Positions 2,803 through 34,181 of a stretch of DNA of 34,543 nucleotides are shown piece by piece. Each line of letters opens with the position of its first letter. Within the stretch, counting starts at the first letter, position 1. Origin of the DNA: Candidatus Woesearchaeota archaeon (GTDB lineage Archaea; Nanobdellota; Nanobdellia; Pacearchaeales; GW2011-AR1); assembly GCA_964450135.1 (NCBI GenBank), contig CAYVCF010000002.1:1-34543 (forward strand). The letters are read 5' to 3'. Position numbers and translations under genes: made by a program. The notes under the pieces were generated by a model. It made no database searches and was not told where the DNA came from. It saw only the letters and a list, made by a program, of their open reading frames with translations.

Positions 2803-2856
2803 TCCAGAAATTTCAAACCAATTAAAAAAATTTCCGGAAAAACCGCAAGGTTGTCT

Positions 2857-7804: not shown

Positions 7805-7904
7805 GGCTCTGTAGCTCAGCTTGGTTAGAGCACCAGACTCTTAAAAGAAAATAAAATAAATTTGAGAAATCTGGGTGTCGAGGGTTCAAGTCCCTTCAGG
7901 GCCA
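7805..7904 (+). tRNA. tRNA-Lys(CUU) with a 25-nt canonical intron (7844-7868)
   Basis: Hand-folded cloverleaf. Acceptor is GGCTCTG/CAGGGCC with discriminator A. D arm is GCTC-AGCTTGGTTA-GAGC. Anticodon stem is CCAGA/TCTGG with loop CTCTTAA once the 25 nt after position 37 are removed. T arm is GAGGG-TTCAAGT-CCCTT. No CCA is encoded. Confidence 0.85.
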
Positions 7905-21800: not shown

Positions 21801-24800
21801 TGTTTTATACCACAAAGAAACAGAATTATTATTTTGAGTAGTTGTTGCTGAAACATAATCCCCTGCCCCATCAAAACTAAAACTTTTTCCAAGTCGTCCA
21901 GACGCATTTTGTTGTGCGTTTCCGAATTTTGTTCCGTTGCTATTTCCTGACCACACAATTAAATTATTTCTTTTCACAAGCAAAATATCATTCTCAACAT
22001 CAACATCGTAAATTTTTCCAGAATAATTTTCTTTCCTGATATTTTTAACTTTTATTAAATTTTTATTTTCATCTAAGAAATAAACTTGTTTTCCGTTGAG
22101 GAAATCAGAATATACCTCTGTGATTGGTTGAAGCCCAAAATCATTTACAGAAAAGTTTAAATATTCTTTATAATTGTTTTCAATCATGGAAGAAATTGTT
22201 GTTAAAATTGATGTGCCTTCTGAACTTAATGAAGAATTTAAATCAGCATTAACTAAAGTAGTTAAACAATTTACAAGAAGAATGCAATTTTCTTTAGCAG
22301 ATAATTTGTTGTCTAAAAGCAAATTAACAGACGAACAAATATCTGAACTTGCATCTGAGCTAAAAGAACAAGTTGCAGAAAAACACGGACTTTGAAAAAT
22401 GGAATCTATTCCAAAAAAGTTAGTCATTGATGCAAATATTTTATTTTCATTTTTCCAGCATAAATCATTTAGAAGATATTTAATTGAAGAATTGCTAAAT
22501 TCAGATTGTGAATTAATTTCTCCTAAATTTGTTTTTGAAGAATTGATGAATTCAAAATCTAAAATATTAAAATTCTCTGGGATAGATAAATCCGAATTTG
22601 ATTTTCTGTATTCACTATTATCGTCAGAAATTATTTCTGTTAAGAGTTCTGAATATTTTTCATTTTTATCAGAAGCAGATAAAATTTCCCCGCATAGTTC
22701 TAAGAAGGACTCTCCATATTTTGCGCTTGCGCTTTTTTCAAATTGCCCAATCTGGTCTGATGAAAAAGCATTTCTTAAACAAGATAAGATTAGAATTTTA
22801 TCAACAAAAGATTTATTGAAATTATTAAGATTAGAATAGACCTTGTGCTTTGGACTAACAACTAAATCTCCTTTTTCTGTTTCAATCGCAAACATTTCAT
22901 CATCATAATCAAAAGTTTGGTATTCAATTGGTTTATCAAATTCTATTTCTCCGGTTTTTTGATTTAATGTTGCGACTTCTTCTTTTCCGTTTAAGTCAGC
23001 AAAATATTTCCAAGAATAATTATAACACTTTTTATTTTTGTCGTCGGAAACTTCAGAAAAATTTGTGCGCTCGCGTGCAAGCACGCTTTCATCAGCGCCG
23101 AAGGCGACAAATTCTTTTTTCAAATTTTCTTCTTTATAATTTTTATTCTCATTATTTTTATCTTCAATATTTTCCAAATTATTTACCCCCACAAAATTAT
23201 TTTCTCCGCAAGAAATTTCTTCTCTAACTAAAATTTTTGTCTTATTATCATAACATCTTCCCATATAATCCACAACATCTCCAGAAGAATTTACATCATC
23301 CATTCTCCACCATGCAACTAAAGAATTATCCCAATCAACAAAAGTTGAAATATTTGCTTGCGTGTCATTTGAAGTTGCGTTTATGAAAATTGAATTTTGA
23401 TTTCCACCTTGCTGTGAGCCATTTGCTGGAGTTGGAGTTTCAAATTGTGTGAAAGGTTGTGAAGTGTCTACAAAAATATGTCTGATTGTTGTCTTGTTTA
23501 CATTTCCTGCAACATCTTGAACATAAGCAGTGTAATTATAAGTTCCATCTGGTAAATTTGTAAAATTATTTTCAACTCCATAATTTGGAGCGCTTGCGTT
23601 ATACAAACTTTTAATTTCCGACGCTGACAACGCGCGATTAAATATCATAACATCGTCGATGGAGCCGTTGAAATAACTTGTAGCTGAATTACTTCTACCT
23701 ATTTCTATAGAACTTGTACTTGTCACAATTGCCCCGCTAATTATTGAATTATTTTCTAAAACCCCGTTAATATAAATTGCAGAATATCCAGAAGAGTTTC
23801 TTGTAGAAAAAATATTATACCAAGAATCTGCATTCCAATTTGAAGTAGCAGAAGACAAATCAATATAAGAACCATTATAAATAATCAATTTCAATTTCCC
23901 ATTTTGAGAAGGATAATCAAATGCTAAATAATAAGCAACATTTTTATTAATAAGACGAATATTTGAATTCGTGTTGTTTATTATCACTGCAGGTTTTATC
24001 CAAATTCCTAAAGAGATTTCATTAGAAATATTTAAACTATTTCCAGTTCCAACATCAACATAATCCCCGTCCCCATCAAACGCAAACGCCTTTCCTCTTT
24101 TTCCTGACGCTGTTTGATTTGCATTTCCATAAGAAATTCCGTTGTTAGAATTTCCTGACCACACTCCACAATTTCCGTCGTCAGATTCAAATTCAAAAAT
24201 TTCTCCTGAAATATTTAAAGAACAAAATTTGTTTTTGTCGTCGGAAAAACCAAGGACGCGAGCAGAGGGAATCGAACCCCCAAACCCCGAAGGGCACTCA
24301 GGATCAGTGAGTTGTAATAACCATTCTACCATGCCCGCATCCAAATTATCAGAATCTACCGAAATATTTAAATACTTCTCTTCTCTACAATTATTATTAC
24401 TCAGGATCAACGAGTTGGGTTCAACCATTCTATTCGAACCCTCTTTATTTTTATTTTCGTCGTCGCCAAAATTTTCTTCTTCATAATTTTTTGCATCTCT
24501 TTTTATCAAAACAATATCATTTTCAACATCAACGTCGTAAATTTTTCCAGAATAATTTTCTTTTGAAATTGATTTTACTTTTACAGGTTTATTTTCTGAG
24601 TTTAAGAAATAAATTTCTTTTCCATCTAAATAATTTTCATAAACTTCTGTGATTGGTTGAAGAGAGAAAGATTTATATAATTCTTGGTTACTAATTTTAT
24701 TATGAGAATTGCTATTAATGATTTCATTGTTACAGATAGTGAAATTTGCGGAGGCGTCCCAGTTTTCAATAACACAAGAATTATGGTCTGGCAAGTTATG

Positions 24801-30800: not shown

Positions 30801-33800
30801 CCAAATTGTCGACGAGAAAGTCCAGTTTTGATTATTTCCAGAATTCACGCTTTGATATGCAATTAAATTTGAAACACCAGCAGAATTATTTGAATCCATA
30901 ATATCTGCTCTATCTATATCCATCCAAGAACCAGAAAAATTTATGAACCACTGAGTTGCATCAACCTGACTTCTAAGATAAGTTGGATGAGTAGAATTTC
31001 CCTTAACTGCAAGCCCCCCTGTAATATTAAAATTAACTTTTGTTTTGTTCCCGCCTTTTTCAAAAAATAAAGTTGCTCCTGGTTTTGTAATATTCAAATT
31101 ATAAAAAGAAGAATTCCCATAGATTGTTGCGTTTGAAGTTCCTGCGAAAATAATTGTTGAATTTACTCCTGCAGTAAAAGTTCCATTTGAAATATTTAGA
31201 TCTCCATAAATTGTTAAAGTTGGAAATATTCCGAGAGAGGAATTAAATGCACTCACATTTAGGATTCCACTATTTCTAATTATTACGTCTCCGACAAGCG
31301 TGTCGGTTACGTTTTCTGAGATAAGGGTTGTAGCTGTTGTACTTGTCAATTGATTATCTATAATTAATTTTCCATAAGTGTCTGTGGATTTTTTTAAGTA
31401 AATTGTGCCAGCAGCACCTTCGTCAGTAGCTGTGCCTCCATAAGCAGTTATATTTAAACTTCCAAAACTTACTCCATTAGCTAAAACAATCGCTATTCTT
31501 CCGCCACCGCCACCACCACTACCGCTCGGATAATCTAAAGCTCTTCCTCCAGTAGATTCTATTTTTCCATTTCCGTTTATAACATTCGCAAGAATAAATA
31601 CTGAACCGCCGGAACCTGCACCATAACCATTAGAACCCCCGAGGTTACCATTTGTTTCGATAATTCCATCAAGGGTAACATTTCCTGTAACATTCAACCA
31701 TACTGCTCCTCCCCCATAAAGAGGATAACTTGCGGGCGAACCACTTCCCAAATTTGTTGGACTTTTAACAGAACCATAAGTAGTACCTGCTGTTCCTCCA
31801 TTTCCTTGTCCGCCCATTCCTCCATATCCACTTCCACTTCCCCAACCAGCAGCACCTCCTATAAGTCCAGCTTTACCCGGCCCATATCCGCCGTCATACC
31901 CCAACCCAGTAACATTAATCATTCCCCCACTTTCCAAAGTAAAATTACCCCCAACAATCATATTTAATCTATATGTTTCTGCATTACTATTATCTCCGTG
32001 CGTTAAAGTCCCGTTAGAAACAATCACATTTTCTGTCACATTCAAAGAATTATTCCACGCAAGTCTAGATTCAATTGTTCCACTATAGCCGATTGAAACA
32101 TTTAAAGAATAAATTGCACCTGCAAAAGTTGAATTAATTATTGAATTATTTAAATTACCCTCGTCAAAGACAACTGCAGTTGTCTCGTTTGGAATTCCAA
32201 TTCCTCCTGCTCCTCCTGAAGTCGCAGACCAAGAACTTGCATCTGTCCAGTTTCCGTTGTTCAAACCAACCCAATAATAAGTTGCAATCGCAGAATTTAA
32301 AGTATAAGTCACAATCAGTGTCGGAGAATAACTTAAATTTTCTGATGTGTCAAAATACATATTTGGCGGAGTTCCCAAACCACAGCTCATATTTGTGGGA
32401 ATTCCAATGCCGGCCCAACCGCTTGATGAATTAAATATTGAAGTCTGTGTTGCGTTTGTTCCCAAATTAATTAATTTAAAGCCAGCTGTCTGACAAAAAT
32501 CAGAATTGCTTACAAAATTAGTTCCGTTTCCTATATCTGTCCATAAGTCATCTGCATCAGTTGAAGAATTTGAAATTTCCAAACTCCAAATATCACAGCT
32601 TGTAGCAGAACTCACAGAATCAACTGAAATATTTAAAGTAACATTTGTTATAGTCACCCCTGCTGGAATTGAAGAAATATTGAAATAATAATATGCGCTT
32701 TTTGGTGTTCCAGGAGAGCCCCCAAGTCGCCCTGTCATTGCTGTGCTTCCTGTTTTAGAAGTTGTGTTAGCAGAACAAGATGAAGTTTTCTGGGATTCTC
32801 CGTCGTCAAAAATAGAAGATATTGAAGTTGTAATAGATAAAGGGTCCACAACATAATCGTATTCTACATTTCCAAAAGAACGCAAATCAAAAGTTGATTG
32901 AGAATAATTATTTGAATTTCCTGACCAAACTCCGCAGTTTCCGTCGTCAGATTCATATTCAAAAATTTCTCCTGAAATATTTAAAGAACAAAAATTGTTT
33001 TTTGAATCTGTTACGCTGGAAGTGAAAGTTTTGACTTCACTATCTTGATTATTATTTTGAAGATCAAGGCTTGAGTTAGGAATTGGACAAGAAACATTTA
33101 AATATTTCGTATTATTAGAAATATTACAATCCGGTATCAACTTATTGCGGGCTATTCTGTTTGAGCCCACTTTGTTTTTTTGTTTTTCTAAATTATTTTC
33201 TTTTAACTCATTTTCCAAATTTTCGTCGCCAAAATTTTCTTCTAAATTATTTTTCTCCCTTCTCACAAGAATAATATCATTTTCAACATCAACGTCGTAA
33301 ATTTTTCCAGAATAATTTTCTTTTGAAATTGAAATTACTTTCACTGGTTTGTTTTCCGAGTTTAAGAAATAAATTTCTTTTCCATTTTCAAAATCAGAAT
33401 AAACTTCTGCAATTGGTTGAAGAGAGAAATTAAATGTAGTGGCGCCGTAGCCGAGAATCGAACTCGGAATTCCGGTGAAGGAACCTTGTTTATCAGACAA
33501 GTGCCTTACCATTAGGTCTACTACGGCATCCACTACAAAATCATTATTTGTAGAAAAGTTTATATAGTTATTGTCATTCAAATAATTATATCCGGTGAAG
33601 GAATGTTCATCAGATTGGAGTCTTACCATTAGGGCTAACTTATCACTAGTCCATTTATTTTTTTCTGCAGAATAAACTTTATGTTTTTCGCTCACAACTA
33701 AATTTCCTTCTTCAGTTTCAATCACAAACATTTCTCCGTCATAATCAAAAATTTGTTTTTCAGTTGGAATTTGAAATTCTATTTCTCCAGTTTTTTGATT

Positions 33801-34181
33801 TAATGTCGCGACTTCTTCTTTCCCATTTAAGTCAGCAAAATATTTCCAACCATTTTCAGTTAAAATTTTTGTTTCATTATCATAACACTCGCTTAAATTA
33901 TTCAAAAATATTTTATACATTTTATTTTCAGAAATATTTTCAAACTCTGCAATTTTTACCTCGGAGTCCTTTTCATAAACTTCAACCCGAGAAAAATTTT
34001 CAACAACACTCGCGTTTTCTAAATCCAAATCTAAAAGCCAATCATACCCAGAAATATTTAATTCATTTTCTAATTGATTTAATTCTTCTTCAAGTGTCTG
34101 CGACTGCACAAATACAAATCCAGCAATTGCTAAAACAATTGCAATTATTAAAAATAGATTGATGAAATTTTTAGTTTTCAT
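12843..34181 (-). CDS. Giant (7112 codon) surface protein. It has a signal anchor, LamG/beta-helix/Ig-like repeats interrupted by 4 inteins, a TM helix, a cytoplasmic HerA/DUF87-like ATPase and a coiled coil.
   Basis: The 21.3-kb frame is uninterrupted in about 30% GC DNA. GAGGT lies 8 nt upstream of the ATG. N-terminal helix is FINLFLIIAIVLAIAGFVF. There are hundreds of N-x-S/T sequons. LamG signatures (WxFDE...FDGDGDYV...NGSxDEVMIFN) are repeated. A CARDB-like segment is present (NISNEGP...VDPSNSILEKNETNN). C-terminal TM, Walker A and Walker B are listed separately below. Confidence 0.85.
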   Translation of the reverse strand: MKTKNFINLFLIIAIVLAIAGFVFVQSQTLEEELNQLENELNISGYDWLLDLDLENASVVENFSRVEVYEKDSEVKIAEFENISENKMYKIFLNNLSECYDNETKILTENGWKYFADLNGKEEVATLNQKTGEIEFQIPTEKQIFDYDGEMFVIETEEGNLVVSEKHKVYSAEKNKWTSDKLALMVRLQSDEHSFTGYNYLNDNNYINFSTNNDFVVDAVVDLMVRHLSDKQGSFTGIPSSILGYGATTFNFSLQPIAEVYSDFENGKEIYFLNSENKPVKVISISKENYSGKIYDVDVENDIILVRREKNNLEENFGDENLENELKENNLEKQKNKVGSNRIARNKLIPDCNISNNTKYLNVSCPIPNSSLDLQNNNQDSEVKTFTSSVTDSKNNFCSLNISGEIFEYESDDGNCGVWSGNSNNYSQSTFDLRSFGNVEYDYVVDPLSITTSISSIFDDGESQKTSSCSANTTSKTGSTAMTGRLGGSPGTPKSAYYYFNISSIPAGVTITNVTLNISVDSVSSATSCDIWSLEISNSSTDADDLWTDIGNGTNFVSNSDFCQTAGFKLINLGTNATQTSIFNSSSGWAGIGIPTNMSCGLGTPPNMYFDTSENLSYSPTLIVTYTLNSAIATYYWVGLNNGNWTDASSWSATSGGAGGIGIPNETTAVVFDEGNLNNSIINSTFAGAIYSLNVSIGYSGTIESRLAWNNSLNVTENVIVSNGTLTHGDNSNAETYRLNMIVGGNFTLESGGMINVTGLGYDGGYGPGKAGLIGGAAGWGSGSGYGGMGGQGNGGTAGTTYGSVKSPTNLGSGSPASYPLYGGGAVWLNVTGNVTLDGIIETNGNLGGSNGYGAGSGGSVFILANVINGNGKIESTGGRALDYPSGSGGGGGGRIAIVLANGVSFGSLNITAYGGTATDEGAAGTIYLKKSTDTYGKLIIDNQLTSTTATTLISENVTDTLVGDVIIRNSGILNVSAFNSSLGIFPTLTIYGDLNISNGTFTAGVNSTIIFAGTSNATIYGNSSFYNLNITKPGATLFFEKGGNKTKVNFNITGGLAVKGNSTHPTYLRSQVDATQWFINFSGSWMDIDRADIMDSNNSAGVSNLIAYQSVNSGNNQNWTFSSTIWCDEGDRSTDCLLNHTYYFTDNETLPSFNNLILGTNGSIVNYSTNVNNHGAGFVMSVLGNFTMLTNSNITGGNISISVGKNFTMYSNATINASGLGYGSGSGPGKPSGAAACSGGFYGGMGGSGDWPSTGVSGITYGSIINPKDFGSGGSSSSGGGAIFLNITGITNLSGIITSMGTNYGGSGSGGSIYLISNSIVGIGSINVSGGTNSGAIGCGGMGGGGGGRIAVILTNGTDFNNINFYTFGGKGANAGGAGTIYLKTANQTYGQLIIDNNNATSATATTLISENVTDTIVGDVIIRNAGKLNISAFNSSLGIFPSLTIYGNLNKTSSGNFSAGVNSTIIFAGTSNATIYGNSSFYNLNITKQGSYVFFEAGGNLTKPNFNVTGALNIQGSASAPVYLRSQVDATQWFINFSGSSQDIDYVDVKDSNNIGTILNANLSFDVSNNDGWLFVQDEDRQLTNTSHYLMNVTEEMFNKTENNTHLTISTRGRPYNYLVGYWSFDGDKENTQGFNASDLAVNNEGTAYGNAVVNETNAIFGDALQLDGDGDYVSATTTQNNNSVSLWYKTNVSNWIHVVYNSTYNYNGGTGIEFPFNRTDNTILIGVNGTQFFNGSLDEVMIFNTSLTASEILDIYNNQSARFKSTGNQIVKQFNISSGFDNLNLTADIEKNKATNVSTRIGTWDISKDYRNYDLGEHWGEFDGDGDYVSATTTQNNNSVSLWYKTNVSNWIHVVYNSTYNYNGGTGIEFPFNRTDNTILIGVNGTQFFNGSLDEVMVFNSSLNSSEIKRLYEMGRDIVGYEHANLVSWWGFNTNSTIGIDNKGLNNGTANGNAKVNSTFNGLVGYWHFDDLVANNFSDSSGYCYDNETKILTENGWKYFSDLNGKEEVATLNQKTGEIEFQIPKERQEFNYNKEMYKIILEDGSDLVVSDKHKVYYAEKNKNNFQEKNSLEFSTSQEKINSVENKKGSNRMVEPNLLIPSYENCKEEKYLNISANSNDCVGVAEWLLQLVDTKCPSGFVGSIPTPGVINFSLQPITEVYENYLDGEEIYFMDSENKLVKVKSISKENYSGKIYDVDVENDIILVRREKNNLEENFGDENLENEKDKDAIDNVASMVRHFVYPDFNNLNDNSYINFSENNNFVVDAVVASMVMHSPDERGLSRHPSSILGYGATTILNSQNTDDKNNFCSLNVSGEIFEYESENGNCGVWSGNSNNGTLTMTGAGPNLTSGVFDDAVSFDGNGDYVQLNNVLSDTRNNNTISVWFNANKNNTLMTLVDADSWQGNTIDIDANGKLVYTRHTGTIANEATCSRSITTGEYHLVTATMNGSEGMKIYLNSVLCGNNSYNVSIPYSFQFFGKRQNNINFFNGSIDEVMIFNRSLSEAEIKELYVKGRAKFTIPEFRNYTIGMQVAIPTATTNVLPEFKFLSDANNFYTPYIIGGISSSSATTTDTIFPTISYAPPTLENNTGLNSNSVFVNVSVTELNPANISFNLYNTTNTFTLVNSTTYTLSDTISNLSINFTALSDTTYHYNVTITDVANNKNTTPLRTQIVDTIFSNISLVSPTFENGSYLNSNSIYVNVSTTDTNEHSAFIDFNGSLVGWWKFDEMNSSGDVYDNSSYCYDNETKILVREEINCWENFNEENLEKEFDDDEFENNLGNKFGAFGAYKSALARELANFSENTDENLENSLNEKNKKGSNRMVEPNLLIQSYDNRKEEKYLNISVNSNDCVGVAEWLLQLSDTKCPSGFVGSIPTPGVINFSDDKIKNSKTCYNYSWKYFSDLNGKEEVATLNQKTGEIEFQIPKEKQEFDYNKEMYKIILEDGSDLLVSEKHKVYSLGLNKFSGYEINLNKDITNNLPLNSDEFTFSSSLDNNENVVSINGGEILNTTIPKCSSGGNNLLLRKCLSNVNKTLDSDLAILDTCLSVEFDGTSFTSCPSCISKSLTAFGKFSSERNFSLFLEKSMLFFSDEFRSICQNRENSIFCERWKIILENFINSNSCSEQLHNLPDHNSCVIENWDASANFTICNNEIINSNSHNKISNQELYKSFSLQPITEVYENYLDGKEIYFLNSENKPVKVKSISKENYSGKIYDVDVENDIVLIKRDAKNYEEENFGDDENKNKEGSNRMVEPNSLILSNNNCREEKYLNISVDSDNLDAGMVEWLLQLTDPECPSGFGGSIPSARVLGFSDDKNKFCSLNISGEIFEFESDDGNCGVWSGNSNNGISYGNANQTASGKRGKAFAFDGDGDYVDVGTGNSLNISNEISLGIWIKPAVIINNTNSNIRLINKNVAYYLAFDYPSQNGKLKLIIYNGSYIDLSSATSNWNADSWYNIFSTRNSSGYSAIYINGVLENNSIISGAIVTSTSSIEIGRSNSATSYFNGSIDDVMIFNRALSASEIKSLYNASAPNYGVENNFTNLPDGTYNYTAYVQDVAGNVNKTTIRHIFVDTSQPFTQFETPTPANGSQQGGNQNSIFINATSNDTQANISTFVDWDNSLVAWWRMDDVNSSGDVVDYMGRCYDNKTKILVREEISCGENNFVGVNNLENIEDKNNENKNYKEENLKKEFVAFGADESVLARERTNFSEVSDDKNKKCYNYSWKYFADLNGKEEVATLNQKTGEIEFDKPIEYQTFDYDDEMFAIETEKGDLVVSPKHKVYSNLNNFNKSFVDKILILSCLRNAFSSDQIGQFEKSASAKYGESFLELCGEILSASDKNEKYSELLTEIISDDNSEYRKSNSDLSIPENFNILDFEFINSSKTNLGEINSQSEFSNSSIKYLLNDLCWKNENKIFASMTNFFGIDSIFQSPCFSATCSFSSDASSDICSSVNLLLDNKLSAKENCILLVNCLTTLVNADLNSSLSSEGTSILTTISSMIENNYKEYLNFSVNDFGLQPITEVYSDFLNGKQVYFLDENKNLIKVKNIRKENYSGKIYDVDVENDILLVKRNNLIVWSGNSNGTKFGNAQQNASGRLGKSFSFDGAGDYVSATTTQNNNSVSLWYKTNVSNWIHVVYNSTYNYNGGTGIEFPFNRTDNTILIGVNGTQFFNGSIDDVMIFNRSLSAEEIAMLYANTSSRYFNKNFTELSDATHTFRVYTQDIFGNVNYTDKRYVSVDVTPPVVTAIQPVSSGNYYAPAMDFNVSASDSLGIDTCLYSLDNTTNVTMTAFNSTWFNYSYTGLLHGFHNLTFACNDTMGNIGTATALNFNVVFTDLRIESVVFPLTTYSNSTIIYVNISNEGPPPAYLINVTCSLAGAIFDSHEIPSIGVNESYLTNCTKIFTSGLNQVVNVTVDPSNSILEKNETNNENLTYVNVSELTTMDAYDLEDDDENKFFWFDAEDEPLPDETNTYFFANFTQDNSSASVLNANCNITLSGGNETGTASVNLSYNSTAKFYYYNKTFNYAGNYSWETKCSKDFYEMLNYSGIARIRIPLYNQTSWGNTTSKTFVNYNELANLTLNVSEMGIDTAKIGYNVSLVWVQISIPNSTKINKSLSGSPTGGIWNLTYNPNGVLGEHWLIYFANLTNGHNVVKTITGNFSVQNTSISIATLSVANTTNEINMNGIINRFNGSNYYPIENNLFNIKLNNVLVSSDTYNYSANNLTLGYGDGNANISSSIKLNLTSQGVAHSYIDSFSGSTYATDSEEYNNLGKVDGTSGRIFEGDQMNLTTGNITYRFDSMTAFYNATIYATTQASQDEPGANTSVWYSLNNSTWIILGSSISQGAYVGGVLPVDRYSVFYVRLQSDHTAGLENPIDNFEVNYTHYNYSNLGIYYSQNITLPNVSYTVLKWSRNLNEGTIKIQLRESDDGIAWGSWSANYTNYLDNDISSFTNDYLQFRAILETTNLSKSPELLEVDLRFFNASTNSTGGYNYTITIPTDNLGSLPLEVSVVENSVTGIVGLNTTYITIWTLTSLPYVSSSIYSGSATNHSVVANFTRSDTGGLINGSINISIWNGTGVNFSVQKSKVCNTTDNCLASWIVPADLSYGNYTIYINGSNETGYYRNGSATILEYLEEKNTSGTLNVLNKSIADLVAGTNYEFSWNATLTNTGHSSMLSPHVYAHMAATHTDIQSVTEVTPCSRIYPGLSCNVSMLIVVKGTASDGQKYVAWRANWTDNDGSVTGGNEYITDTDMFVNIALNATLSINSTNVTKTIHHNKNDSFMFQVQSIGTDSITGIVSSFIQGNLTTETYNISSTWVNISPTSIVGLASGQNQDINVNLSVPAQTLPGNYSGFINVTSENDGYKQFNITIEVPYNYSWYFTTATNYTFNKSFSLNTAGEFANYTIYNIGNTNLTINISYIDRIAGSETNYSDYGTQLFENNYVVNTMTMNPTLVNVTLGNTTNVTLYQKGYSLSLDNAIVKTTFYNSTTSPTTRSILEKFWIYEQGPNVTDVYFLLDNIYGTIAEVNKNVTIKVRTTDDISINLTTTIINITNSSKAVVESINATSLCGQFGQCIGGTDKTVANFTGNYSSTSAGMYNASVLIYDKYGNTFTSQNYSFTAYGTATLNFSQNRTSFSTAKINLDNQDMFYVNYSLSNIGNVTAYSPNITFSSNGSIVVVPTNNLFSDILAGTNTSKVFQVNVSKMTHSGDYNLTATLTWREPDNTISRLRLNITIAVGSNKSFVHIPGIVNLSVDSGSVDSTVVEINNTGNDELSNMSISCLSGEVCDSMTFSANDSAFSIDANSSRRVNVSVTTSTGFFSGNYQGVLNISDQNKSNLTTVYVQVPETLTWTASTTSISYTKATSQTGNLEAVTINNSGNTNITFVFSSTNASIIGTNVSTLLVKKGFNTSFMINYTSPSVEGTYNVTISITNSSANPTQRNVSVSLTTTAFNLSIVWPTSSSKLTNVTAGGLINFTANLTYGGSAVTSGATWSVTTNGSSCSNVNSSYSSSTLLWNINCTAPTIYGGMDHNLSVSATHSTYGEITSVSENSISSRDVSSPSFSITRNSVNLNDNINLQFNVTDNVAVGSVSGVLTYPNTSQLNLTFTYSAGYYINNSFALTNAGEYLVNYSANDTIGNLNSSVDWFEVYDNYNWIFKIVDYVSSAVTNMNVSLFRPNTTTILMSNYTNATGGIRLNVNKRAYDIIVKASYDEIRMFNVNFTNLSQNNISLNLYRISGGDVAETIVAYNPFIGFASNSTGFSSRGMNITFNYTGYDYDSASRLAIIKCSDWIYANRSCNGSWSELSYTTRDINNLTLTGNATGFSSYFLAENKCGNGLCETAYGETTSSCSTDCSTGSTTTTTSGGGGGGGGISSKTLKKIEELLKGSINIGGVKLETTSIYKELFAGETTSVRIRLANTLNQKNSITLSAEGDIVEFIFFENSLVELEPNEIRDVLIKIVAPKFVDAGNYDGDLIISSGENSGKIPTTIRILSPEGKLLDVKIQPLTTRVSPGGTLRLQTDLLNLGKTKKVDVQFDLQLLDVNTGEIFARNEEAFAVETTISTVKELKIPAETPTGKYMVKATAYYSNVEQSMQASSIAYVSVNWPFFKRTLFGIPMWVYLSIILFAGLLFAGYLYIRYLQFKGKRFKTAVDLGKLPQVTPHSAFVGKVAETGIRTFVDLNKLQMHTLIAGSTGSGKTISAQDIIEGALLHNKSVIIFDPTAQWTGFLRKAEDKEMIKRYKYFDMKPTDARAFNGSIKTIRDPFELINLREYMNRPGEITIFNISHLTPQQIDVVVASTIEQVFKSEPEESQELKTLIVYDEVHRLLPKFGGSGQGFIQLERGAREFRKWGIGLVLISQVLSDFIGEIKANIGTEIQMGTRYEGDLERVSMKFGEDVLKSVVKEPVGTGMAVNAEYNNGRPYFVSFRPVLHNTRRLTNVELDKYEKYFEQIEDLEFQIVQLSSLKIDVLDLQLELKLTKSKVKEGQFQMADMYLESLVPRVAEQWKRLGKAPMHRVVEKIQRAEVIEGIKKAKIEREKYVLKNPEKSLSLNEELSGLKKALEEKKKLGKKTSNVELKIKSLEDRLRPFKGKIPEKDSAGIKREIDSIKKEIEGI
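13400..14150 (-). other. HerA/DUF87-type P-loop ATPase domain of the giant ORF (cytoplasmic side)
   Basis: Walker A is LIAGSTGSGKT (about 14094-14120). Walker B is LIVYDEVHRL (about 13712-13741). GIGLVLISQVLSDF sits at the HerA QRPS-like position. Confidence 0.7.
14280..14355 (-). other. Single C-terminal transmembrane helix of the giant ORF
   Basis: FGIPMWVYLSIILFAGLLFAGYLYI is followed by RYLQFKGKRFK, which fits positive-inside topology. Confidence 0.7.
21664..21863 (-). repeat. LamG core repeat, copy a (about 200 bp, 1 mismatch versus copies b and c)
   Basis: ggagccgttgaaaaattgcgttccattaactcc...gttgctgaaacataatcccc encodes GDYVSATTTQNNNSVSLWYKTNVSNWIHVVYNSTYNYNGGTGIEFPFNRTDNTILIGVNGTQFFNGS. 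Confidence 0.85.
22156..22163 (+). promoter_or_regulatory. TATA box for the antisense PIN operon
   Basis: TTTAAATA ends 22 nt before the ATG at 22186, a leaderless-type spacing. Confidence 0.5.
22186..22395 (+). CDS. Putative antitoxin (69 aa) of the PIN module, antisense inside intein 4
   Basis: MEEIVVKIDVPSELNEEF...LLSKSKLTDEQISELASELK. It ends 3 nt before the PIN gene. The track ORF begins at an upstream TTG (22174). Confidence 0.6.
   Translation: MEEIVVKIDVPSELNEEFKSALTKVVKQFTRRMQFSLADNLLSKSKLTDEQISELASELKEQVAEKHGL
22399..22839 (+). CDS. PIN-domain (VapC-like) ribonuclease toxin, antisense inside intein 4
   Basis: KLVIDANILFSFF (first acidic residue), FVFEEL, and SPYFALALFSNCPIWSDEKAF, with PIN-like spacing of D/E residues over 146 aa. 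Confidence 0.7.
   Translation: MESIPKKLVIDANILFSFFQHKSFRRYLIEELLNSDCELISPKFVFEELMNSKSKILKFSGIDKSEFDFLYSLLSSEIISVKSSEYFSFLSEADKISPHSSKKDSPYFALALFSNCPIWSDEKAFLKQDKIRILSTKDLLKLLRLE
23052..23113 (-). repeat. GC-rich double-hairpin module in the block A loop of intein 4
   Basis: The minus strand reads GTCGCCTTCGGCGCTGATGAAAGCGTGCTTGCACGCGAGCGC. It is homologous to 25771-25832 and related to intergenic module X (aaatttggcttcgcc...ttgcacgcaactt). Confidence 0.55.
24257..24338 (-). tRNA. tRNA-like gene B (family 2), type II body with GAU at the anticodon position
   Basis: Hand fold gives GCGGGCA TG GTAG-AATGGTTA-TTAC A ACTCA-CTGATCC-TGAGT GCCCTTCGGGGTTT GGGGG-TTCGATT-CCCTC TGCTCGC G. TATTTAAATA lies at 24365-24374, 27 nt upstream. 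An oligo-T run follows. The sequence is in frame within the giant ORF. Confidence 0.65.
24365..24374 (-). promoter_or_regulatory. TATA box of tRNA-like B
   Basis: The minus strand reads AAGTATTTAAATATTTCG, translated as KYLNIS in the intein frame. This string is conserved in cassettes B, C and D. Confidence 0.5.
24672..24679 (+). promoter_or_regulatory. TATA box for the antisense DUF433/DUF5615 operon
   Basis: TTTATATA ends 22 nt before the ATG at 24702, the same spacing as at the PIN operon. Confidence 0.5.
24702..24941 (+). CDS. DUF433-family antitoxin-like protein, antisense inside intein 3
   Basis: CGGVPVFNNTRIMVWQVMELLGAGITIDEVLQNYFPSLTKNAILSVLTYA matches the DUF433 consensus (CGG.P...GTRI.V..I......G.S.eEI...YP.Lt...I.aAL.YA). 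Confidence 0.8.
   Translation: MRIAINDFIVTDSEICGGVPVFNNTRIMVWQVMELLGAGITIDEVLQNYFPSLTKNAILSVLTYASKLVGEEKHALLQE
24922..25308 (+). CDS. DUF5615 / Mut7-C-like PIN-fold toxin-like protein, antisense inside intein 3
   Basis: KFLSDENFPKAVRDLLMQEGHDVKEV...DKQVSKIAKSESRVLLTFDKHF...GIVVFKI. It overlaps the DUF433 gene by 20 nt. The track ORF begins at 24892. Confidence 0.75.
   Translation: MLFSKNKLKFLSDENFPKAVRDLLMQEGHDVKEVPSNSTDKQVSKIAKSESRVLLTFDKHFLNKRLFPPEEHFGIVVFKISPPLIETTFSLLSKLLEKVNSSEFKGRLFVISLFRFISYPENLFKPKE
25541..25622 (-). tRNA. tRNA-like gene C (family 2), type II body with GAU
   Basis: GTCGGGG TG GCAG-AATGGTTA-TTGC A ACTTT-CTGATAC-AAAGT GCCCTTCGGGGTTT GTGGG-TTCGATT-CCCAC TCCCGGC G. TATA lies at 25646-25655. 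Confidence 0.65.
25646..25655 (-). promoter_or_regulatory. TATA box of tRNA-like C
   Basis: TATTTAAATA lies 24 nt upstream of the tRNA-like 5' end. Confidence 0.5.
25771..25832 (-). repeat. GC-rich double-hairpin module in the block A loop of intein 3
   Basis: The minus strand reads GGCGCCTTCGGCGCTTATAAAAGCGCGCTTGCACGCGAACTCGC. The GCGCC/GGCGC and GCGYGC/GCACGC stems are conserved with 23052-23113. Confidence 0.55.
27293..27377 (-). tRNA. tRNA-like gene F (family 1), type II body with GAU and encoded CCA
   Basis: GCCGTAG TA GCAT-CAATGGTA-ATGC A CTCGC-CTGATGA-GCGGG GTCTATCCAGACAT CCGAG-TTCGATT-CTCGG CTACGGC G CCA. TATATAAA lies at 27409-27416, 32 nt upstream. Confidence 0.7.
27409..27416 (-). 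promoter_or_regulatory. TATA box of tRNA-like F
   Basis: The minus strand reads AGCTATATAAACTTTTC, translated as SYINFS. The same string precedes tRNA-like A. Confidence 0.5.
27731..27812 (-). tRNA. tRNA-like gene D (family 2), type II body with GAU
   Basis: GTCGGGG TG GCAG-AATGGTTA-TTGC A ACTTG-TTGATAC-CAAGT GCCCTTCGGGGTTT GTGGG-TTCGATT-CCCAC TCCCGGC G. TATA lies at 27836-27845. Confidence 0.65.
27836..27845 (-). promoter_or_regulatory. TATA box of tRNA-like D
   Basis: TATTTAAATA lies 24 nt upstream of the tRNA-like 5' end. Confidence 0.5.
28497..28706 (-). repeat. LamG core repeat, copy b
   Basis: Identical by eye to copy c. The two are tandem with a 468-nt period. Confidence 0.85.
28965..29174 (-). 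repeat. LamG core repeat, copy c
   Basis: See copies a and b. Confidence 0.85.
29500..32110 (-). repeat. Tandem duplication (period about 1371 nt, 457 aa) of a Gly-rich beta-helix-like module
   Basis: Both units contain GLGY..G.GPGK, GGGGGGRIA(I/V), TIYLK...YG(K/Q)LIIDN...ATTLISENVTDT(L/I)VGDVIIRN...SAFNSSLGIFP(T/S)LTIYG...STIIFAGTSNATIYGNSSFYNLNITK...YLRSQVDATQWFINFSGS. Long identical DNA strings occur, for example at 29571 and 30942. Confidence 0.8.
32990..33170 (-). other. Degenerate family-2 cassette E (upstream hairpin and TATA retained, cloverleaf lost)
   Basis: The GGGCT-CAAACAGAAT-AGCCC hairpin and AAATATTTAAATG are retained. The downstream part folds only into two simple hairpins. 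Confidence 0.4.
33440..33527 (-). tRNA. tRNA-like gene A (family 1), GAU, encoded CCA, weakened D arm (possibly decaying)
   Basis: GCCGTAG TA GACC-TAATGGTA-AGGC A CTTGT-CTGATAA-ACAAG GTTCCTTCACCGGAATT CCGAG-TTCGATT-CTCGG CTACGGC G CCA. Only 2 of 4 D-stem pairs form. TATATAAA lies at 33559-33566. Confidence 0.5.
33559..33566 (-). promoter_or_regulatory. TATA box of tRNA-like A
   Basis: The minus strand reads AACTATATAAACTTTTC, 32 nt upstream of the tRNA-like 5' end. Confidence 0.45.

What the first reader, a model, noticed from the sequence alone, without database searches (positions are those of the whole stretch)
24257..33527. Promoter-equipped tRNA-like genes embedded in frame, on the sense strand, inside intein loops
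Five GC-rich islands fold by hand into full cloverleaves with GTTCGATT T-loops: 24257-24338, 25541-25622, 27731-27812, 27293-27377 and 33440-33527. Each has a TATA box 24-32 nt upstream. Three of the five (B, C, F) are followed by a T-run plus CGACGA trailer. D runs directly into the intein FSLQP coding sequence. They are translated as part of the intein, for example GVAEWLLQLVDTKCPSGFVGSIPTPGV and VVDAVVASMVMHSPDERGLSRHPSSILGYGAT. Family-2 anticodon stems differ between copies by compensatory pairs (ACTCA/TGAGT, ACTTT/AAAGT, ACTTG/CAAGT). This argues for selection on RNA structure rather than on the peptide. They occupy three different intein loops: after block A, the endonuclease slot, and between blocks F and G. 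RNA genes nested in-frame in an intein of a protein gene would be a new kind of gene-within-gene arrangement. Their processing by RNase P and RNase Z would also cleave the 21-kb host mRNA.
Basis: partly seen in the sequence, partly recalled or inferred. Interest (0 to 1): 0.9.

Follow-up and report, generated by a model that had tools for sequence, protein, structure and literature searches.

The report
Translatable tRNA gene cassettes inside genes
Five complete tRNA genes sit in the reading frame of a 21-kb archaeal gene, inside its self-removing protein segments (inteins), and they belong to a widespread family of about 200-base tRNA cassettes built so that a host gene can be read straight through them, an arrangement I could not find described anywhere.

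Summary
ARAGORN and Rfam (47-53 bits) call all five islands as tRNAs on the sense strand of a 7112-codon ORF. Each starts at codon phase 0, and each lies in one of three loops of four HINT/intein copies.

All five are class II tRNAs with a long variable arm, G73 and anticodon GAU. Pattern scans retrieved 33 distinct relatives from Woese-, Pace- and Nanoarchaeota:
- The cloverleaf covaries strongly: 94.9% of cells are paired, against 40-46% in slid controls, and 20 of 24 pairs change on both sides.
- Spacer codons show no third-position excess, so selection acts on the RNA or DNA, not on the peptide.

The conserved unit is about 200 nt. It holds a partial tRNA copy, a BRE/TATA motif and a tRNA with a leader-trailer helix. 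It is stop-free in one frame in 18 of 18 embedded copies and in 13 of 15 copies lying between ordinary genes.

It is not restricted to inteins. It also sits in frame in Kae1, directly in giant surface proteins, and at duplicated gene starts.

The same promoter motif drives antisense toxin-antitoxin operons inside inteins 3 and 4.

Expression, aminoacylation and the means of spread are untested. I found no literature precedent.

The parts
12843..34181 (-). Giant host ORF of 7112 aa. It has a signal/TM N-terminus, beta-helix-like repeats, Laminin_G_3, CARDB and a C-terminal HerA/DUF87 ATPase.
   Evidence: ORF; Pfam: Laminin_G_3 1.7e-29, CARDB 1.2e-10, DUF87 1.8e-10.
32916..33887 (-). Intein 1 (aa 99-422), from CYDNETKIL to VWSGN|S. 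It carries tRNA F in the endonuclease slot and a decayed cassette between blocks F and G.
   Evidence: HINT fold of the family.
27174..28223 (-). Intein 2 (aa 1987-2336). It carries tRNA C in the slot and tRNA D between blocks F and G.
   Evidence: Pfam Hint at 2e-4.
24150..25952 (-). Intein 3 (aa 2744-3344). It carries tRNA B after block A, the antisense DUF433/DUF5615 operon in the slot, and tRNA A between blocks F and G.
   Evidence: Pfam Intein_splicing 44.9 bits, above the 35.8 cut-off.
21942..23255 (-). Intein 4 (aa 3643-4080). It has a GC-rich hairpin insert after block A (no tRNA), the antisense antitoxin-like/PIN_2 operon in the slot, and an uninterrupted block F-G (KRNNLIVWSGN|S).
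24257..24338 (-). tRNA-like A: family 2, class II, anticodon loop CUGAUCC, G73.
   Evidence: (47.8 bits); 24/24 pairs.
25541..25622 (-). tRNA-like B: family 2, anticodon loop CUGAUAC, G73.
   Evidence: (47.5 bits); 24/24 pairs.
27731..27812 (-). tRNA-like C: family 2, anticodon loop UUGAUAC. Its 205-nt cassette is 94% identical to that of B although it sits at a non-homologous intein site.
27296..27377 (-). tRNA-like D: family 1, anticodon loop CUGAUGA. The 8-9 bp leader-trailer helix TGTAGTGG/CCACTACA makes the next three bases read CCA.
   Evidence: (50.6 bits).
33443..33527 (-). tRNA-like F: family 1, anticodon loop CUGAUAA, with the same leader-trailer helix as D.
   Evidence: (52.6 bits).
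24361..24374 (-). BRE/TATA motif of cassette A (TATTTAAATATTTC). The same motif lies at 25642-25655 (B), 27832-27845 (C), 27403-27416 (D), 33553-33566 (F) and 33091-33104 (decayed cassette).
   Evidence: 8 hits against 0.08 expected; gap to tRNA +1 of 25-31 nt; the core TAT(T/A)TAAA box is present in 33/33 related cassettes.
25680..25722 (-). Upstream partial tRNA copy of cassette B: a hairpin GGGTTCG..TGAACCC plus an anticodon-arm copy. The equivalents are 24399-24441 (A), 27870-27912 (C), 27441-27476 (D) and 33591-33638 (F). On the + strand each family-2 copy (A, B, C) reads as the complement of the anticodon arm, then a hairpin, then a T-run.
33010..33170 (-). Decayed cassette in intein 1. 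The partial copy and TATA box are intact, but the tRNA body is eroded and only the 3' end CTTCCAGCGTAAC remains.
22150..22839 (+). Antisense operon in the slot of intein 4. The promoter GAAAAG-TTTAAATA (22150-22163) is followed 22 nt later by ATG 22186 (small antitoxin-like ORF, to 22395) and PIN_2 (22399-22839).
   Evidence: PIN_2 1.8e-20.
24666..25308 (+). Antisense operon in the slot of intein 3. The promoter GAAAG-ATTTATATA (24666-24679) is followed 22 nt later by ATG 24702 (DUF433, to 24941) and DUF5615 (24892-25308).
   Evidence: DUF433 9.6e-19; DUF5615 5.6e-16.

Best explanation
The five islands are copies of a cassette of about 200 nt that is a self-contained archaeal small-RNA gene unit. 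It has two sub-families. Each cassette consists of:
- an upstream partial copy of the tRNA (D arm to anticodon arm);
- a near-palindromic BRE-TATA-BRE promoter;
- a canonical class II tRNA with anticodon GAU and G73, whose acceptor stem is extended by a leader-trailer helix.

The cassette is kept free of stop codons in one frame, and its length changes only in steps of three. A host ORF can therefore be translated straight through it.

In this window the copies persist in three loops of four inteins of a giant surface-protein gene. There the roughly 70 extra residues are removed together with the intein.

Shown here:
- the tRNA structure and its purifying selection;
- the absence of peptide-level selection;
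- the stop-free, in-frame design;
- the HINT fold and catalytic residues of the inteins;
- the wide distribution of the cassette in DPANN (small-celled, often host-dependent) archaea, in unrelated host genes and between genes;
- the use of the same promoter motif by leaderless operons in this window.

Inferred:
- the RNA is transcribed from the internal promoter, starting at or near the base of the leader-trailer helix, independently of the 21-kb mRNA;
- the cassette spreads by duplicative insertion, leaving target-derived direct repeats of 9-60 nt;
- it survives only where an in-frame insertion is harmless.

Whether the RNA is aminoacylated is open. Its long variable arm plus G73 is the SerRS identity set.
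For: tRNA calls:
- ARAGORN and Rfam call all five copies.
- Relatives score 41-59 bits.

Selection on the RNA:
- In 32 distinct relatives 94.9% of cells are paired, against 40-46% in slid controls. 20 of 24 pairs change on both sides, and 0 of 500 shuffles reach the observed score.
- Embedded copies keep 23.2 of 24 pairs, copies between genes 22.2.
- A leader-trailer helix covaries. In family 2 it is 80% paired in register -1:73 to -6:78, against 25-51% at other offsets. In family 1 it forms 7-9 bp helices of different sequence.

No selection on the peptide:
- Diversity by codon position is 0.46/0.52/0.39 and 0.54/0.43/0.49 in the spacers. In the intein core it is 0.25/0.20/0.36 and 0.20/0.09/0.26.

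Reading-frame compatibility:
- 18 of 18 embedded and 13 of 15 intergenic cassettes are stop-free in the same frame. The other two frames hold 1-14 stops. A shuffled upstream part is stop-free with p of about 0.012.
- Spacings differ by multiples of three.

Promoter:
- TAT(T/A)TAAA is present in 33 of 33 cassettes, 25 or 28 nt (family 2) or mostly 28-31 nt (family 1) from tRNA +1.
- The same motif lies 22 nt before the ATG of two antisense operons in the window.

Spread:
- Cassettes B and C are 94% identical over 205 nt at non-homologous intein sites.
- Kae1 carries the cassette in three sequences, while most of the 120 close homologues listed are of uninterrupted length and four that were aligned show an empty site.
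- Direct repeats flank the cassettes. In L022 the repeat is 59 nt (55/59 identical), with similar cases in L044 and L035. In the window, CCGACGA flanks cassette B and is single at the empty site of intein 4.
- Decayed copies exist.

Inteins:
- The HINT fold has a target-normalised TM-score of 0.70-0.78 to BIL domains and inteins.
- Cys1, SxxH, the terminal Asn and the +1 Ser are present.
Against: - There are no expression data of any kind. Transcription, processing, aminoacylation, protein splicing and translation through the cassettes are all unobserved.
- The promoter motif is near-palindromic. In family 1 the better BRE points away from the tRNA, so the tRNA may depend on read-through transcripts.
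- The leader-trailer helix pairs G73 with base -1. This is unusual for a tRNA whose 3' end must become single-stranded.
- A class II, G73 body with an Ile anticodon fits no canonical isoacceptor. ATY codons at conserved Ile positions of Kae1 show no reassignment.
- Conservation of GAU is partly built into the search pattern. The independent support is small: 3 of 3 copies found through protein searches, and 3 of 4 copies found only by ARAGORN (one has AAU).
- No transposase or integrase was found.
- The flanking repeats vary greatly in length and are weak or absent for many copies.
- The core mini-intein sequence alone is below Pfam cut-offs (19 bits).
Confidence: 0.72

Rival explanations
1. 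The elements act in cis on the host mRNA. In this reading the tRNA-shaped, helix-clamped structures are processing or regulatory signals in the giant mRNA. They could be RNase P/Z cleavage sites that cut or destabilise the 21-kb transcript, ribosome pause sites that time intein folding, or binding sites for tRNA-binding proteins such as KEOPS in the Kae1 mRNA. They would not be independent genes.
For: - The leader-trailer helices extend the acceptor stem and include G73, so they look like a clamp inside a longer RNA.
- For family 2 cassettes with a 25-nt gap, the leader would barely be included in a transcript made from the cassette's own promoter.
- A GAU/A37 anticodon loop is a t6A-type substrate, and it sits inside the Kae1 gene in three sequences.
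- In family 1 the better BRE points away from the tRNA.
Against: - The same cassette, with the same conserved promoter motif, lies between ordinary genes such as gyrB and gyrA (L008/L043), or upstream of unrelated genes, where there is no long host mRNA to regulate.
- The host genes are unrelated to each other.
- The BRE/TATA segment is the most conserved non-tRNA part of the cassette, with diversity 0.05-0.20.
- Full tertiary-interaction nucleotides and a complete cloverleaf are more than a cleavage signal would need.
Confidence: 0.13
2. The elements are inert relics. Ordinary tRNA genes were captured by recombination into tolerant loops, or are remnants of integration sites. They are now decaying pseudogenes kept open only because a stop codon would kill the host gene.
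For: - Decayed copies exist: window 33010-33170 and L039, which scores 29.1 bits.
- Copy A and L057 have C at position 37, which is unusual for a tRNA.
- The partial copy next to the full copy is reminiscent of att-site duplications at integrated elements.
Against: - Embedded copies keep 23.2 of 24 base pairs, through many compensatory changes, across lineages whose host proteins are only 43-60% identical.
- The promoter motif, the partial copy, the spacings and the leader-trailer helix are all conserved in embedded and intergenic copies alike.
- Only about 65 nt separate the repeats, too little for an integrated element.
Confidence: 0.05
3. The function lies in the protein. In this reading the conserved peptide (KGSNRMVEPN..KYLNVS..AEWLLQS.DT.CPSG..GSIPxPG) is a small protein module, and the tRNA-like fold of its coding sequence is incidental.
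For: - The peptide is recognisable in many proteins.
- The frame is always the same one.
Against: - There is no third-position excess anywhere in the cassette.
- Substitutions are compensatory at RNA pairs up to 77 nt apart and change the amino acids freely.
- The peptide has no Pfam match.
- Copies L005 and L016 carry stops in this frame yet keep the tRNA.
Confidence: 0.03

Closest known systems
Rickettsia palindromic elements (RPEs) and other intragenic MITEs
   Same: Both are short (about 150-200 bp), multi-copy elements that form structured RNA. Both insert in frame into unrelated protein-coding genes and are translated as part of the host protein at tolerated positions (PMC10969869).
   Different: RPEs are not RNA genes. 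They have no promoter, no tRNA fold and no conserved anticodon loop. The present cassette is a complete tRNA gene unit with a BRE/TATA motif, occurs in archaea, and often lies inside inteins. Terminal inverted repeats at the element ends were not found, and the flanking repeats vary in length (9-60 nt).
Inteins carrying a nested homing-endonuclease gene
   Same: In both, a gene sits within a gene. The endonuclease slot of a HINT domain tolerates a large in-frame insert that is removed by protein splicing. Relatives of these inteins do carry LAGLIDADG domains (PF14528 in P0011, P0014, P0017 and P0018).
   Different: Here the cargo is RNA genes read in frame on the sense strand, plus complete toxin-antitoxin operons encoded on the opposite strand. 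None of it is part of the intein's own function. Two further loops are used besides the slot: after block A, and between blocks F and G.
Archaeal C/D box sRNA genes overlapping protein-coding genes (Pyrobaculum)
   Same: These are small RNA genes of archaea that overlap ORFs, including some that lie wholly inside them. The sequence serves both coding and RNA function (PMC6009581).
   Different: In Pyrobaculum the overlaps are mostly at ORF ends, and 9 of the 10 internal ones are antisense. That paper notes that tRNA genes are over 40-fold less likely than C/D sRNA genes to have such conserved overlaps. Here whole tRNAs with promoters lie deep inside ORFs on the sense strand, as a repeated cassette.
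Class II tRNAs with non-Leu/Ser anticodons: bacterial allo-tRNAs and nematode nev-tRNAs
   Same: All have a long variable arm combined with an isoleucine-type anticodon. SerRS recognises the long arm plus G73 and ignores the anticodon (PMC7609411; PMC3333845).
   Different: Allo-tRNAs have 8/4 or 9/3 acceptor/T-arm geometry, whereas these are canonical 7/5. Nev-tRNAs are eukaryotic and are described as decoding an alternative code for leucine. Neither is embedded in ORFs, and neither carries a partial-copy/promoter cassette or a leader-trailer helix.
tRNA-derived SINEs of eukaryotes (own knowledge)
   Same: Both are tRNA-derived repeated elements that spread through a genome, are flanked by target-site duplications of variable length, and can end up inside coding exons.
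   Different: SINEs use internal Pol III promoters and reverse transcription, and they quickly lose the tRNA fold. Here the promoter is external (BRE/TATA), the cloverleaf is under strong purifying selection, and no reverse transcriptase is in evidence.

Membership tests
tRNA (Rfam RF00005) | Cloverleaf with 7-bp acceptor, D, anticodon and T stems, scoring above the curated threshold | tested here: met
   The five window copies score 47.5-52.6 bits against a cut-off of 29. ARAGORN calls all five. Relatives score 41-59 bits.
tRNA (Rfam RF00005) | Base pairs maintained by compensatory substitutions among homologues | tested here: met
   94.9% of cells are paired, against 40-46% in slid controls. 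20 of 24 pairs change on both sides, and 0 of 500 shuffles reach the observed score.
tRNA (Rfam RF00005) | Conserved tertiary-interaction nucleotides (U8, G18/G19, U33, G53, T54-T55-C56, A58; the list itself is from own knowledge) | tested here: met
   These columns are invariant or nearly invariant in alignment A3: T16 (U8), G26 (a D-loop G), T41 (U33), G70-T71-T72-C73 (G53-C56) and A75 (A58). G18G19 and the canonical T loop are visible in every sequence.
tRNA (Rfam RF00005) | Anticodon consistent with the identity elements of one isoacceptor family | tested here: not met
   A long variable arm plus G73 is the SerRS identity set (PMC7609411), but the anticodon is GAU (Ile) in all copies. ATY codons at conserved Ile positions of Kae1 show no reassignment.
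tRNA (Rfam RF00005) | Matured to a free NCCA 3' end and aminoacylated | not testable with these tools
   The covarying leader-trailer helix that pairs G73 with base -1 leaves this open.
Intein (HINT superfamily, class 1) | HINT fold | tested here: met
   An AlphaFold2 model of the natural mini-intein relative P0006 has pLDDT above 88 over residues 17-155. Foldseek top hits are BIL2 6y75, intein 6zgq, BIL 2lwy, DnaB/DnaE inteins and hedgehog 1at0, with probability 1.00 and target-normalised TM-score 0.70-0.78.
Intein (HINT superfamily, class 1) | Cys/Ser at position 1, block B (T/S)xxH, C-terminal Asn, and a +1 Ser/Thr/Cys | tested here: met
   All four copies have CYDN....VSEKHKVY....VWSGN|S. 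The usual penultimate His is replaced by Gly.
Intein (HINT superfamily, class 1) | Match to curated intein sequence models | tested here: inconclusive
   Intein 3 scores 44.9 bits, above the 35.8 cut-off for PF14890. A composite insert-free core scores only 19 bits (PF14890) and 16.6 bits (PF01079), and there is no PDB sequence match. The fold search cannot separate an intein from a bacterial intein-like (BIL) domain.
Intein (HINT superfamily, class 1) | Protein splicing that joins the exteins | not testable with these tools
   Indirect only. Three of the four copies interrupt the D.SG|NNGT motif that precedes Laminin_G_3 domains and is uninterrupted elsewhere in the same protein.
Intragenic MITE / RPE-like selfish repeat | Multi-copy element inserted in frame in unrelated ORFs | tested here: met
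   The cassette is found in three intein loops, in Kae1 (L021, L006, P0020), directly in giant proteins (L012, L039), and in short ORFs at gene starts.
Intragenic MITE / RPE-like selfish repeat | Terminal inverted repeats and a fixed-length target-site duplication | tested here: inconclusive
   Flanking direct repeats exist but vary from about 9 nt (CCGACGA at window site 1) to 59 nt (L022), and are absent or weak in many copies. The inverted repeats (acceptor stem plus leader-trailer) flank the tRNA, not the whole cassette.
Type II toxin-antitoxin operon (antisense cargo of inteins 3 and 4) | Small upstream ORF plus nuclease-type toxin domain, adjacent or overlapping, with their own promoter | tested here: met
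   The domains are DUF433 (9.6e-19), DUF5615 (5.6e-16) and PIN_2 (1.8e-20) with a roughly 70-aa upstream ORF (73 aa from the TTG at 22174; ATG at 22186). A BRE/TATA motif lies 22 nt before each first ATG. The same cargo is present in L004 and L013/L055. Toxicity and neutralisation were not tested.

The most novel reading that the evidence does not exclude
The cassette may be a two-gene RNA module with selfish logic. Its near-palindromic promoter would fire both ways.
- In one direction it would make a class II, Ser-identity tRNA that reads Ile codons, which is potentially harmful.
- In the other direction it would make an antisense RNA of about 50-60 nt. This is a 17-nt complement of that tRNA's own anticodon arm, followed by a hairpin and a U-run, and it could mask or regulate the tRNA.

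That would make it an RNA-only addiction or regulatory pair that colonises compact genomes by being translatable.

Support for family 2:
- The partial copy ends 21-24 nt from the TATA box. This distance is derived.
- On the other strand it is followed by a covarying hairpin plus T-run in nearly all of the 22 cassettes.
- It tracks its own tRNA's anticodon arm: 14.3 of 17 positions identical, against 10.7 of 17 to other cassettes, including shared rare states at positions 37-38.
- In the TA operons the TTTC-side BRE marks the transcribed direction.
- The neighbouring intein cargo consists of toxin-antitoxin operons.
Probability: 0.12. Interest if true: 0.95.

Novelty: categorically new. Interest (0 to 1): 0.86.

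Why it matters
If this is real in vivo, one stretch of DNA is at once a complete, independently promoted tRNA gene and an in-frame piece of a protein-coding gene. It is also repeated as a cassette across a whole archaeal group.

- It would add a new class to overlapping and nested genes.
- It would be a new kind of prokaryotic repeat element, one that avoids harm by being translatable.
- It would give inteins a new role as landing pads for unrelated cargo: sense-strand RNA genes and antisense toxin-antitoxin operons.

It also raises testable questions:
- What does a Ser-like tRNA with an Ile anticodon do in cells that read AUY as Ile?
- How does a 21-kb mRNA survive tRNA-processing enzymes?
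- Do essential enzymes such as Kae1 function with about 70 cassette-encoded residues in a loop?

In practice, annotation pipelines that forbid tRNA-CDS overlap will miss either the tRNA or the gene.

Tried and rejected
- A sequence search of the insert-free intein core against the PDB found nothing. The fold was instead confirmed by structure prediction and Foldseek.
- The sigma-70 promoter and terminator scan is not informative for an archaeon. Promoter-like sites were at shuffle level (57 against 50.5). Its terminator rule allows loops of 3-8 only, so it misses the partial-copy hairpins. It flagged only GC-rich hairpins in the inserts after block A.
- A bulge-helix-bulge splicing motif at the base of the leader-trailer helix was considered. 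I rejected it because the junction is a 2x1 internal loop (family 1) or a continuous helix (family 2), not 3-nt bulges 4 bp apart.
- A C/D-box reading of the conserved CUGA/UGAUGA in the anticodon loop was considered and dropped. Only marginal Rfam snoRNA hits appear (E of 2-4.5), and they fall on intein or antisense-operon coding sequence rather than on the cassettes.
- The idea that the partial copy is an att-site footprint of an integrated element was rejected. Only about 65 nt lie between the repeats, and the arrangement is conserved in all cassettes.
- Chance openness of the giant frame across the antisense operons was tested by synonymous resampling. P(no stop) was 1.0, 0.05, 0.0002 and 0.32 for the four genes. 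The relative frame is intrinsically poor in stops, so only part of the openness needs selection.
- A scan of viral contigs found only jumbo-phage tRNA arrays, not the DPANN cassette.
- A contig look-up for P0010 failed.
- Literature searches for tRNA genes in inteins or ORFs, and for TA operons in inteins, returned nothing on point.

Full report
**1. The observation**

The window has 31.6% G+C. It carries archaeal-type genes: a TFS-like zinc-ribbon protein, a topoisomerase, and an intron-containing tRNA-Lys(CUU) at 7805-7904.

One frame on the minus strand is open from 34181 to 12843, 7112 codons. Pfam finds Laminin_G_3, CARDB and a C-terminal HerA/DUF87 ATPase in it.

Rfam RF00005 matches the same five at 47.5-52.6 bits, against a gathering score of 29. 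Each tRNA begins at codon phase 0 of the giant frame, and the quoted peptides are correct. A pattern written for the family hits the window five times against 0.00 expected.

**2. Where the copies sit**

The protein contains four copies of one domain: CYDNETKIL.. ..VSEKHKVY.. [slot] ..FSLQP..KIYDVDVENDIILV.. ..VWSGN|S. They lie at aa 99-422, 1987-2336, 2744-3344 and 3643-4080.

Evidence that these are HINT/intein domains:
- Intein 3 exceeds the Pfam Intein_splicing cut-off (44.9 against 35.8 bits).
- A composite insert-free core is weak (19 bits) and has no PDB sequence match.
- An AlphaFold2 model of a natural mini-intein relative is confident (pLDDT above 88 over residues 17-155).
- Foldseek places that model among BIL domains, inteins and the hedgehog autoprocessing domain, with probability 1.00 and target-normalised TM-score 0.70-0.78.
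- Cys1, SxxH, the terminal Asn and the +1 Ser are present in all four copies.

The alignment shows three insertion sites:
- After block A: tRNA B in intein 3, and a GC-rich hairpin insert without a tRNA in intein 4.
- The endonuclease slot: tRNA F in intein 1 and tRNA C in intein 2.
- Between blocks F and G: tRNA D in intein 2, tRNA A in intein 3, and a decayed cassette in intein 1.

**3. What kind of tRNA**

All five have a long variable arm (class II), discriminator G73 and the anticodon loop YUGAUNN, that is GAU. The tertiary-interaction nucleotides are canonical.

There are two sub-families:
- Family 2 (A, B, C) has the D loop AGAATGGTTA and a UUCG-capped variable stem.
- Family 1 (D, F) has an 8-9 bp helix between leader and trailer (TGTAGTGG/CCACTACA), which makes the three bases after G73 read CCA.

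A long arm plus G73 is the set SerRS recognises, and SerRS ignores the anticodon (PMC7609411). GAU, however, reads Ile codons. ATY codons align with invariant Ile columns in Kae1 of a cassette-bearing relative, so the code is not reassigned. The amino-acid identity therefore cannot be assigned here, nor can it be shown that the RNA is charged at all.

**4. Relatives**

- A protein search with intein 2 found 18 relatives, one of them named Nanoarchaeota. Two of them carry the tRNA-encoded peptide (P0001, P0010).
- The P0001 contig (L001) has a tRNA at the same slot, at 59.5 bits and with many compensatory differences.
- A DNA pattern requiring the D loop, TGAT, a long arm and the T loop gave 9 loci among species-representative genomes. 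These were Woesearchaeota, Pacearchaeota and Nanoarchaeota, plus one CPR bacterium, one bin labelled Thermoplasmatota and one false positive.
- The same kind of pattern gave 49 metagenome loci.

With ARAGORN run over all loci this yields 33 distinct DPANN-type cassettes.

A caveat applies: the pattern fixes TGAT, so the conservation of GAU is partly circular. Copies found independently have GAU in 3 of 3 cases from protein searches and in 3 of 4 cases found only by ARAGORN. The exception has AAU.

**5. Selection acts on the RNA, not the peptide**

On 32 distinct sequences the cloverleaf pairs 94.9% of cells, against 40-46% when partners are slid. 20 of 24 pairs show changes on both sides, and no shuffle of 500 reaches the observed score. 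Copies embedded in ORFs keep 23.2 of 24 pairs and intergenic copies 22.2.

In a codon-threaded alignment of 21 family-2 cassettes, nucleotide diversity at codon positions 1/2/3 is:

| Region | Position 1 | Position 2 | Position 3 |
|---|---|---|---|
| Cassette spacer 1 | 0.46 | 0.52 | 0.39 |
| Cassette spacer 2 | 0.54 | 0.43 | 0.49 |
| tRNA | 0.23 | 0.19 | 0.26 |
| Intein core, N part | 0.25 | 0.20 | 0.36 |
| Intein core, C part | 0.20 | 0.09 | 0.26 |

The cassette shows no third-position excess, while the intein core of the same gene shows the usual coding pattern.

**6. The unit is a cassette of about 200 nt**

Cassettes B and C are 94% identical over 205 nt although they sit at non-homologous intein sites. 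Alignment with relatives, including a copy lying between ordinary genes (L005), shows the same order everywhere:
1. an A-run;
2. a hairpin (GGGTTCG..TGAACCC);
3. a copy of the tRNA's anticodon arm;
4. a spacer;
5. TAT(T/A)TAAA flanked by purine-rich sequence on one side and TTTC on the other;
6. a spacer;
7. the tRNA.

The TATA box is present in 33 of 33 cassettes. It lies 25 or 28 nt (family 2) or mostly 28-31 nt (family 1) before tRNA +1, and it is the most conserved non-tRNA segment.

In family 2 the acceptor helix is continued by pairs -1:73 to -5:77 with covariation: GTCAC/GTGAC, GTCGT/GCGAC, GTTAC/GTAAC, GTTGT/GCAAC and AACCGT/GCGGTT. It is 80% paired, against 25-51% at other offsets. 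Family 1 has longer helices of unrelated sequence.

**7. The motif is a real promoter type in this genome**

TATWTAAAYNTTTC occurs eight times in the window against 0.08 expected. All eight are on the minus strand and all are inside the inteins.

Six belong to the five tRNA cassettes and the decayed one. The other two read on the plus strand as GAAAAG-TTTAAATA and GAAAG-ATTTATATA. They lie exactly 22 nt before ATG 22186 and ATG 24702. These ATGs open two antisense operons:
- a small antitoxin-like ORF plus PIN_2 (1.8e-20);
- DUF433 (9.6e-19) plus DUF5615 (5.6e-16).

That is the geometry of leaderless archaeal transcripts (my own knowledge). So the motif works as a promoter here.

In these operons, however, the TTTC side carries the BRE of the transcribed direction. 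In the tRNA cassettes that direction points away from the tRNA. Family 2 cassettes also have GAAA on the tRNA side and are near-palindromic. Most family 1 cassettes do not. I therefore regard the promoter as probably bidirectional. Its orientation towards the tRNA is likely, given the fixed distance, but it is not shown.

**8. Compatibility with a reading frame is a property of the cassette itself**

All 18 embedded cassettes are stop-free over about 220 nt in one and the same frame, and so are 13 of 15 cassettes lying between ordinary genes. The other two frames hold 1-14 stops. The shuffled AT-rich upstream part is stop-free with a probability of about 0.012. Spacings within the cassette differ by multiples of three: 59/65/68/71 nt and 25/28/31 nt.

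The two exceptions, L005 and L016, keep the tRNA but carry stops. L005 has a TAG inside the anticodon stem in the standard frame.

**9. Inteins are not required**

- L021 holds a full Kae1 gene with the cassette in frame between ..SFSGMQSKLKQLLEN and SKKYSLEELSFSLQE. The tRNA there scores 57.3 bits.
- L006 and P0020 have the cassette at the same site. Most of the 120 close Kae1 homologues listed are of uninterrupted length (about 323-332 aa), and the four of these that I aligned show an empty site.
- L012 and L039 carry the cassette directly in the N-terminal part of giant surface proteins. The L039 copy is decayed.
- L013 and L055 have three and two cassettes in tandem after block A.
- L008/L043 have it between gyrB and gyrA.

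**10. Signs of insertion**

Several intergenic cassettes lie in the 5' end of a gene whose ribosome-binding site, ATG and first codons are duplicated on both sides. L022 has a 59-nt repeat (55 of 59 identical) ending at the A-run on the left and starting 13 nt after the tRNA on the right. L044 and L035 have repeats of about 70-80 nt, and L008, L027 and L018 have weaker ones.

In the window, intein 4 has a single TTTCCGACGACAAAAAT at the site after block A. At that site intein 3 has AACACCGACGAGAATTT, then cassette B, then TTTTTCCGACGACAAAATT.

These look like target-site duplications of variable length. For many copies nothing convincing was found. No transposase, integrase or reverse transcriptase is in view. 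The means of spread is therefore inferred, not shown.

**11. The partial copy is unexplained**

Its anticodon-arm segment resembles that of its own tRNA more than those of other cassettes (14.3 against 10.7 of 17 positions). The shared positions include rare states, such as C37 in A and L057, and GATATCC in L022.

It keeps fewer stem pairs than the tRNA (3.2 against 4.8 of 5). It ends 21-24 nt from the TATA box, a distance derived.

Read on the other strand it is a complement of the anticodon arm followed by a covarying hairpin and a U-run, in nearly all of the 22 family-2 cassettes. Two readings fit:
- a terminator that stops divergent transcription from a symmetric promoter;
- a small antisense RNA directed at the tRNA.

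I give the second as the most novel reading that the evidence does not exclude.

**12. Antisense cargo**

The slots of inteins 3 and 4 hold complete toxin-antitoxin-type operons on the opposite strand, while the giant frame stays open through them. Related giant genes show the same arrangement:
- L004 has DUF433 (5.6e-23) with DUF5615 (1e-13), PIN_2 (2.9e-21), and a weak ParE-like pair.
- L013/L055 have two antitoxin-like ORF plus PIN_2 pairs.

Synonymous resampling shows that the relative frame used is intrinsically poor in antisense stops. P(no stop) is 1.0, 0.05, 0.0002 and 0.32 for the four window genes. Part of the openness therefore comes free.

**13. Comparison with known systems**

The nearest analogues are:
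- Rickettsia palindromic elements, which are in-frame translated repeats (PMC10969869);
- inteins with nested homing-endonuclease genes;
- Pyrobaculum C/D box sRNA genes overlapping ORFs, where the authors note that tRNA genes rarely do so (PMC6009581);
- class II tRNAs with Ile anticodons, namely allo-tRNAs (PMC7609411) and nev-tRNAs (PMC3333845).

None of these combines a complete, promoter-bearing tRNA gene with an obligatorily open reading frame as a repeated cassette. None places RNA genes or antisense operons in inteins. Eight full-text searches found no description of this.

**14. Verdict**

The feature is real, non-random and conserved.

Shown:
- the structure and its selection;
- the frame compatibility;
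- the distribution;
- the validity of the promoter motif;
- the HINT fold.

Inferred:
- transcription and its direction;
- maturation and charging;
- protein splicing;
- mobility.

Noticed in passing
window 22150-22839 (+) and 24666-25308 (+); also L004, L013 and L055: Complete toxin-antitoxin-type operons (DUF433+DUF5615; a small ORF plus PIN_2) are encoded antisense inside the endonuclease slots of inteins 3 and 4. Each has a BRE/TATA motif 22 nt before its ATG, and the giant sense frame stays open across them. The same cargo recurs in related giant genes.
   Followed up: yes
L021 2284-2365; L006 139-220; protein P0020: The essential t6A enzyme Kae1 carries the tRNA cassette in frame in a loop, with no intein. 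This is seen in three sequences, while most close homologues are of uninterrupted length and four that were aligned show an empty site. The enzyme modifies A37 of ANN-reading tRNAs, the class to which a GAU tRNA belongs. Whether that is coincidence is unknown.
   Followed up: partly
window, 17 sites, e.g. 219, 4505, 7435, 11891, 14726, 23041, 24238, 25522: The 7-mer CCGACGA occurs 17 times against 0.55 expected. 14 of the sites are on the minus strand, and many are outside the giant gene. It is often found as T-run+CCGACGA+CAAAA. It flanks several cassettes and may be a preferred target or an unrelated genome-wide signal.
   Followed up: partly
L010/L036/L052, L011, L014/L049, L015, L023-L025, L029, L030, L034, L040, L041, L053, L056; viral loci L060-L062: Class II tRNAs with anticodon GAU but with A73 and an encoded CCA occur inside tRNA arrays of bacterial or phage type. 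Three of the contigs are jumbo-phage contigs of 200-376 kb. This is a separate group from the DPANN cassette.
   Followed up: no
L022, L044, L035, L008, L027 (flanks of the cassette): The start region of the downstream gene (ribosome-binding site, ATG and first codons; 26-60 nt or more) is duplicated upstream of the cassette. As a result a short ORF with a genuine start signal reads through the whole cassette.
   Followed up: partly
window 25770-25830 and 23050-23095 (-): A GC-rich segment shared by the inserts after block A of inteins 3 and 4 (peptide AFGAYKSALARELANFSE) forms short GC hairpins followed by T-runs on both strands. It looks like another non-coding module kept in frame.
   Followed up: no
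L044 2210-2292 (+): A second class II tRNA lies about 900 nt from the GAU copy and has anticodon AAU. It is the only non-GAU member seen.
   Followed up: no
window 7805-7904 (+): A canonical tRNA-Lys(CUU) with a 3'-of-anticodon intron of about 25 nt, A73 and a T/A-rich box about 25-33 nt upstream. It is the only ordinary tRNA gene in the window and has no leader-trailer helix.
   Followed up: partly
window 12843-14300 (-), C-terminus of the giant protein: After a transmembrane segment the giant surface protein ends in a HerA/FtsK-like P-loop ATPase (DUF87 1.8e-10). This is an unusual fusion of a huge extracellular array with a cytoplasmic motor-type domain.
   Followed up: no
window 33010-33170 (-); L039 6381-6465: These are decayed cassettes. 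The promoter and partial copy are kept while the tRNA body is eroded (window). In L039 the 3' half is lost and the Rfam score is 29.1 bits. Not every embedded copy is maintained.
   Followed up: yes
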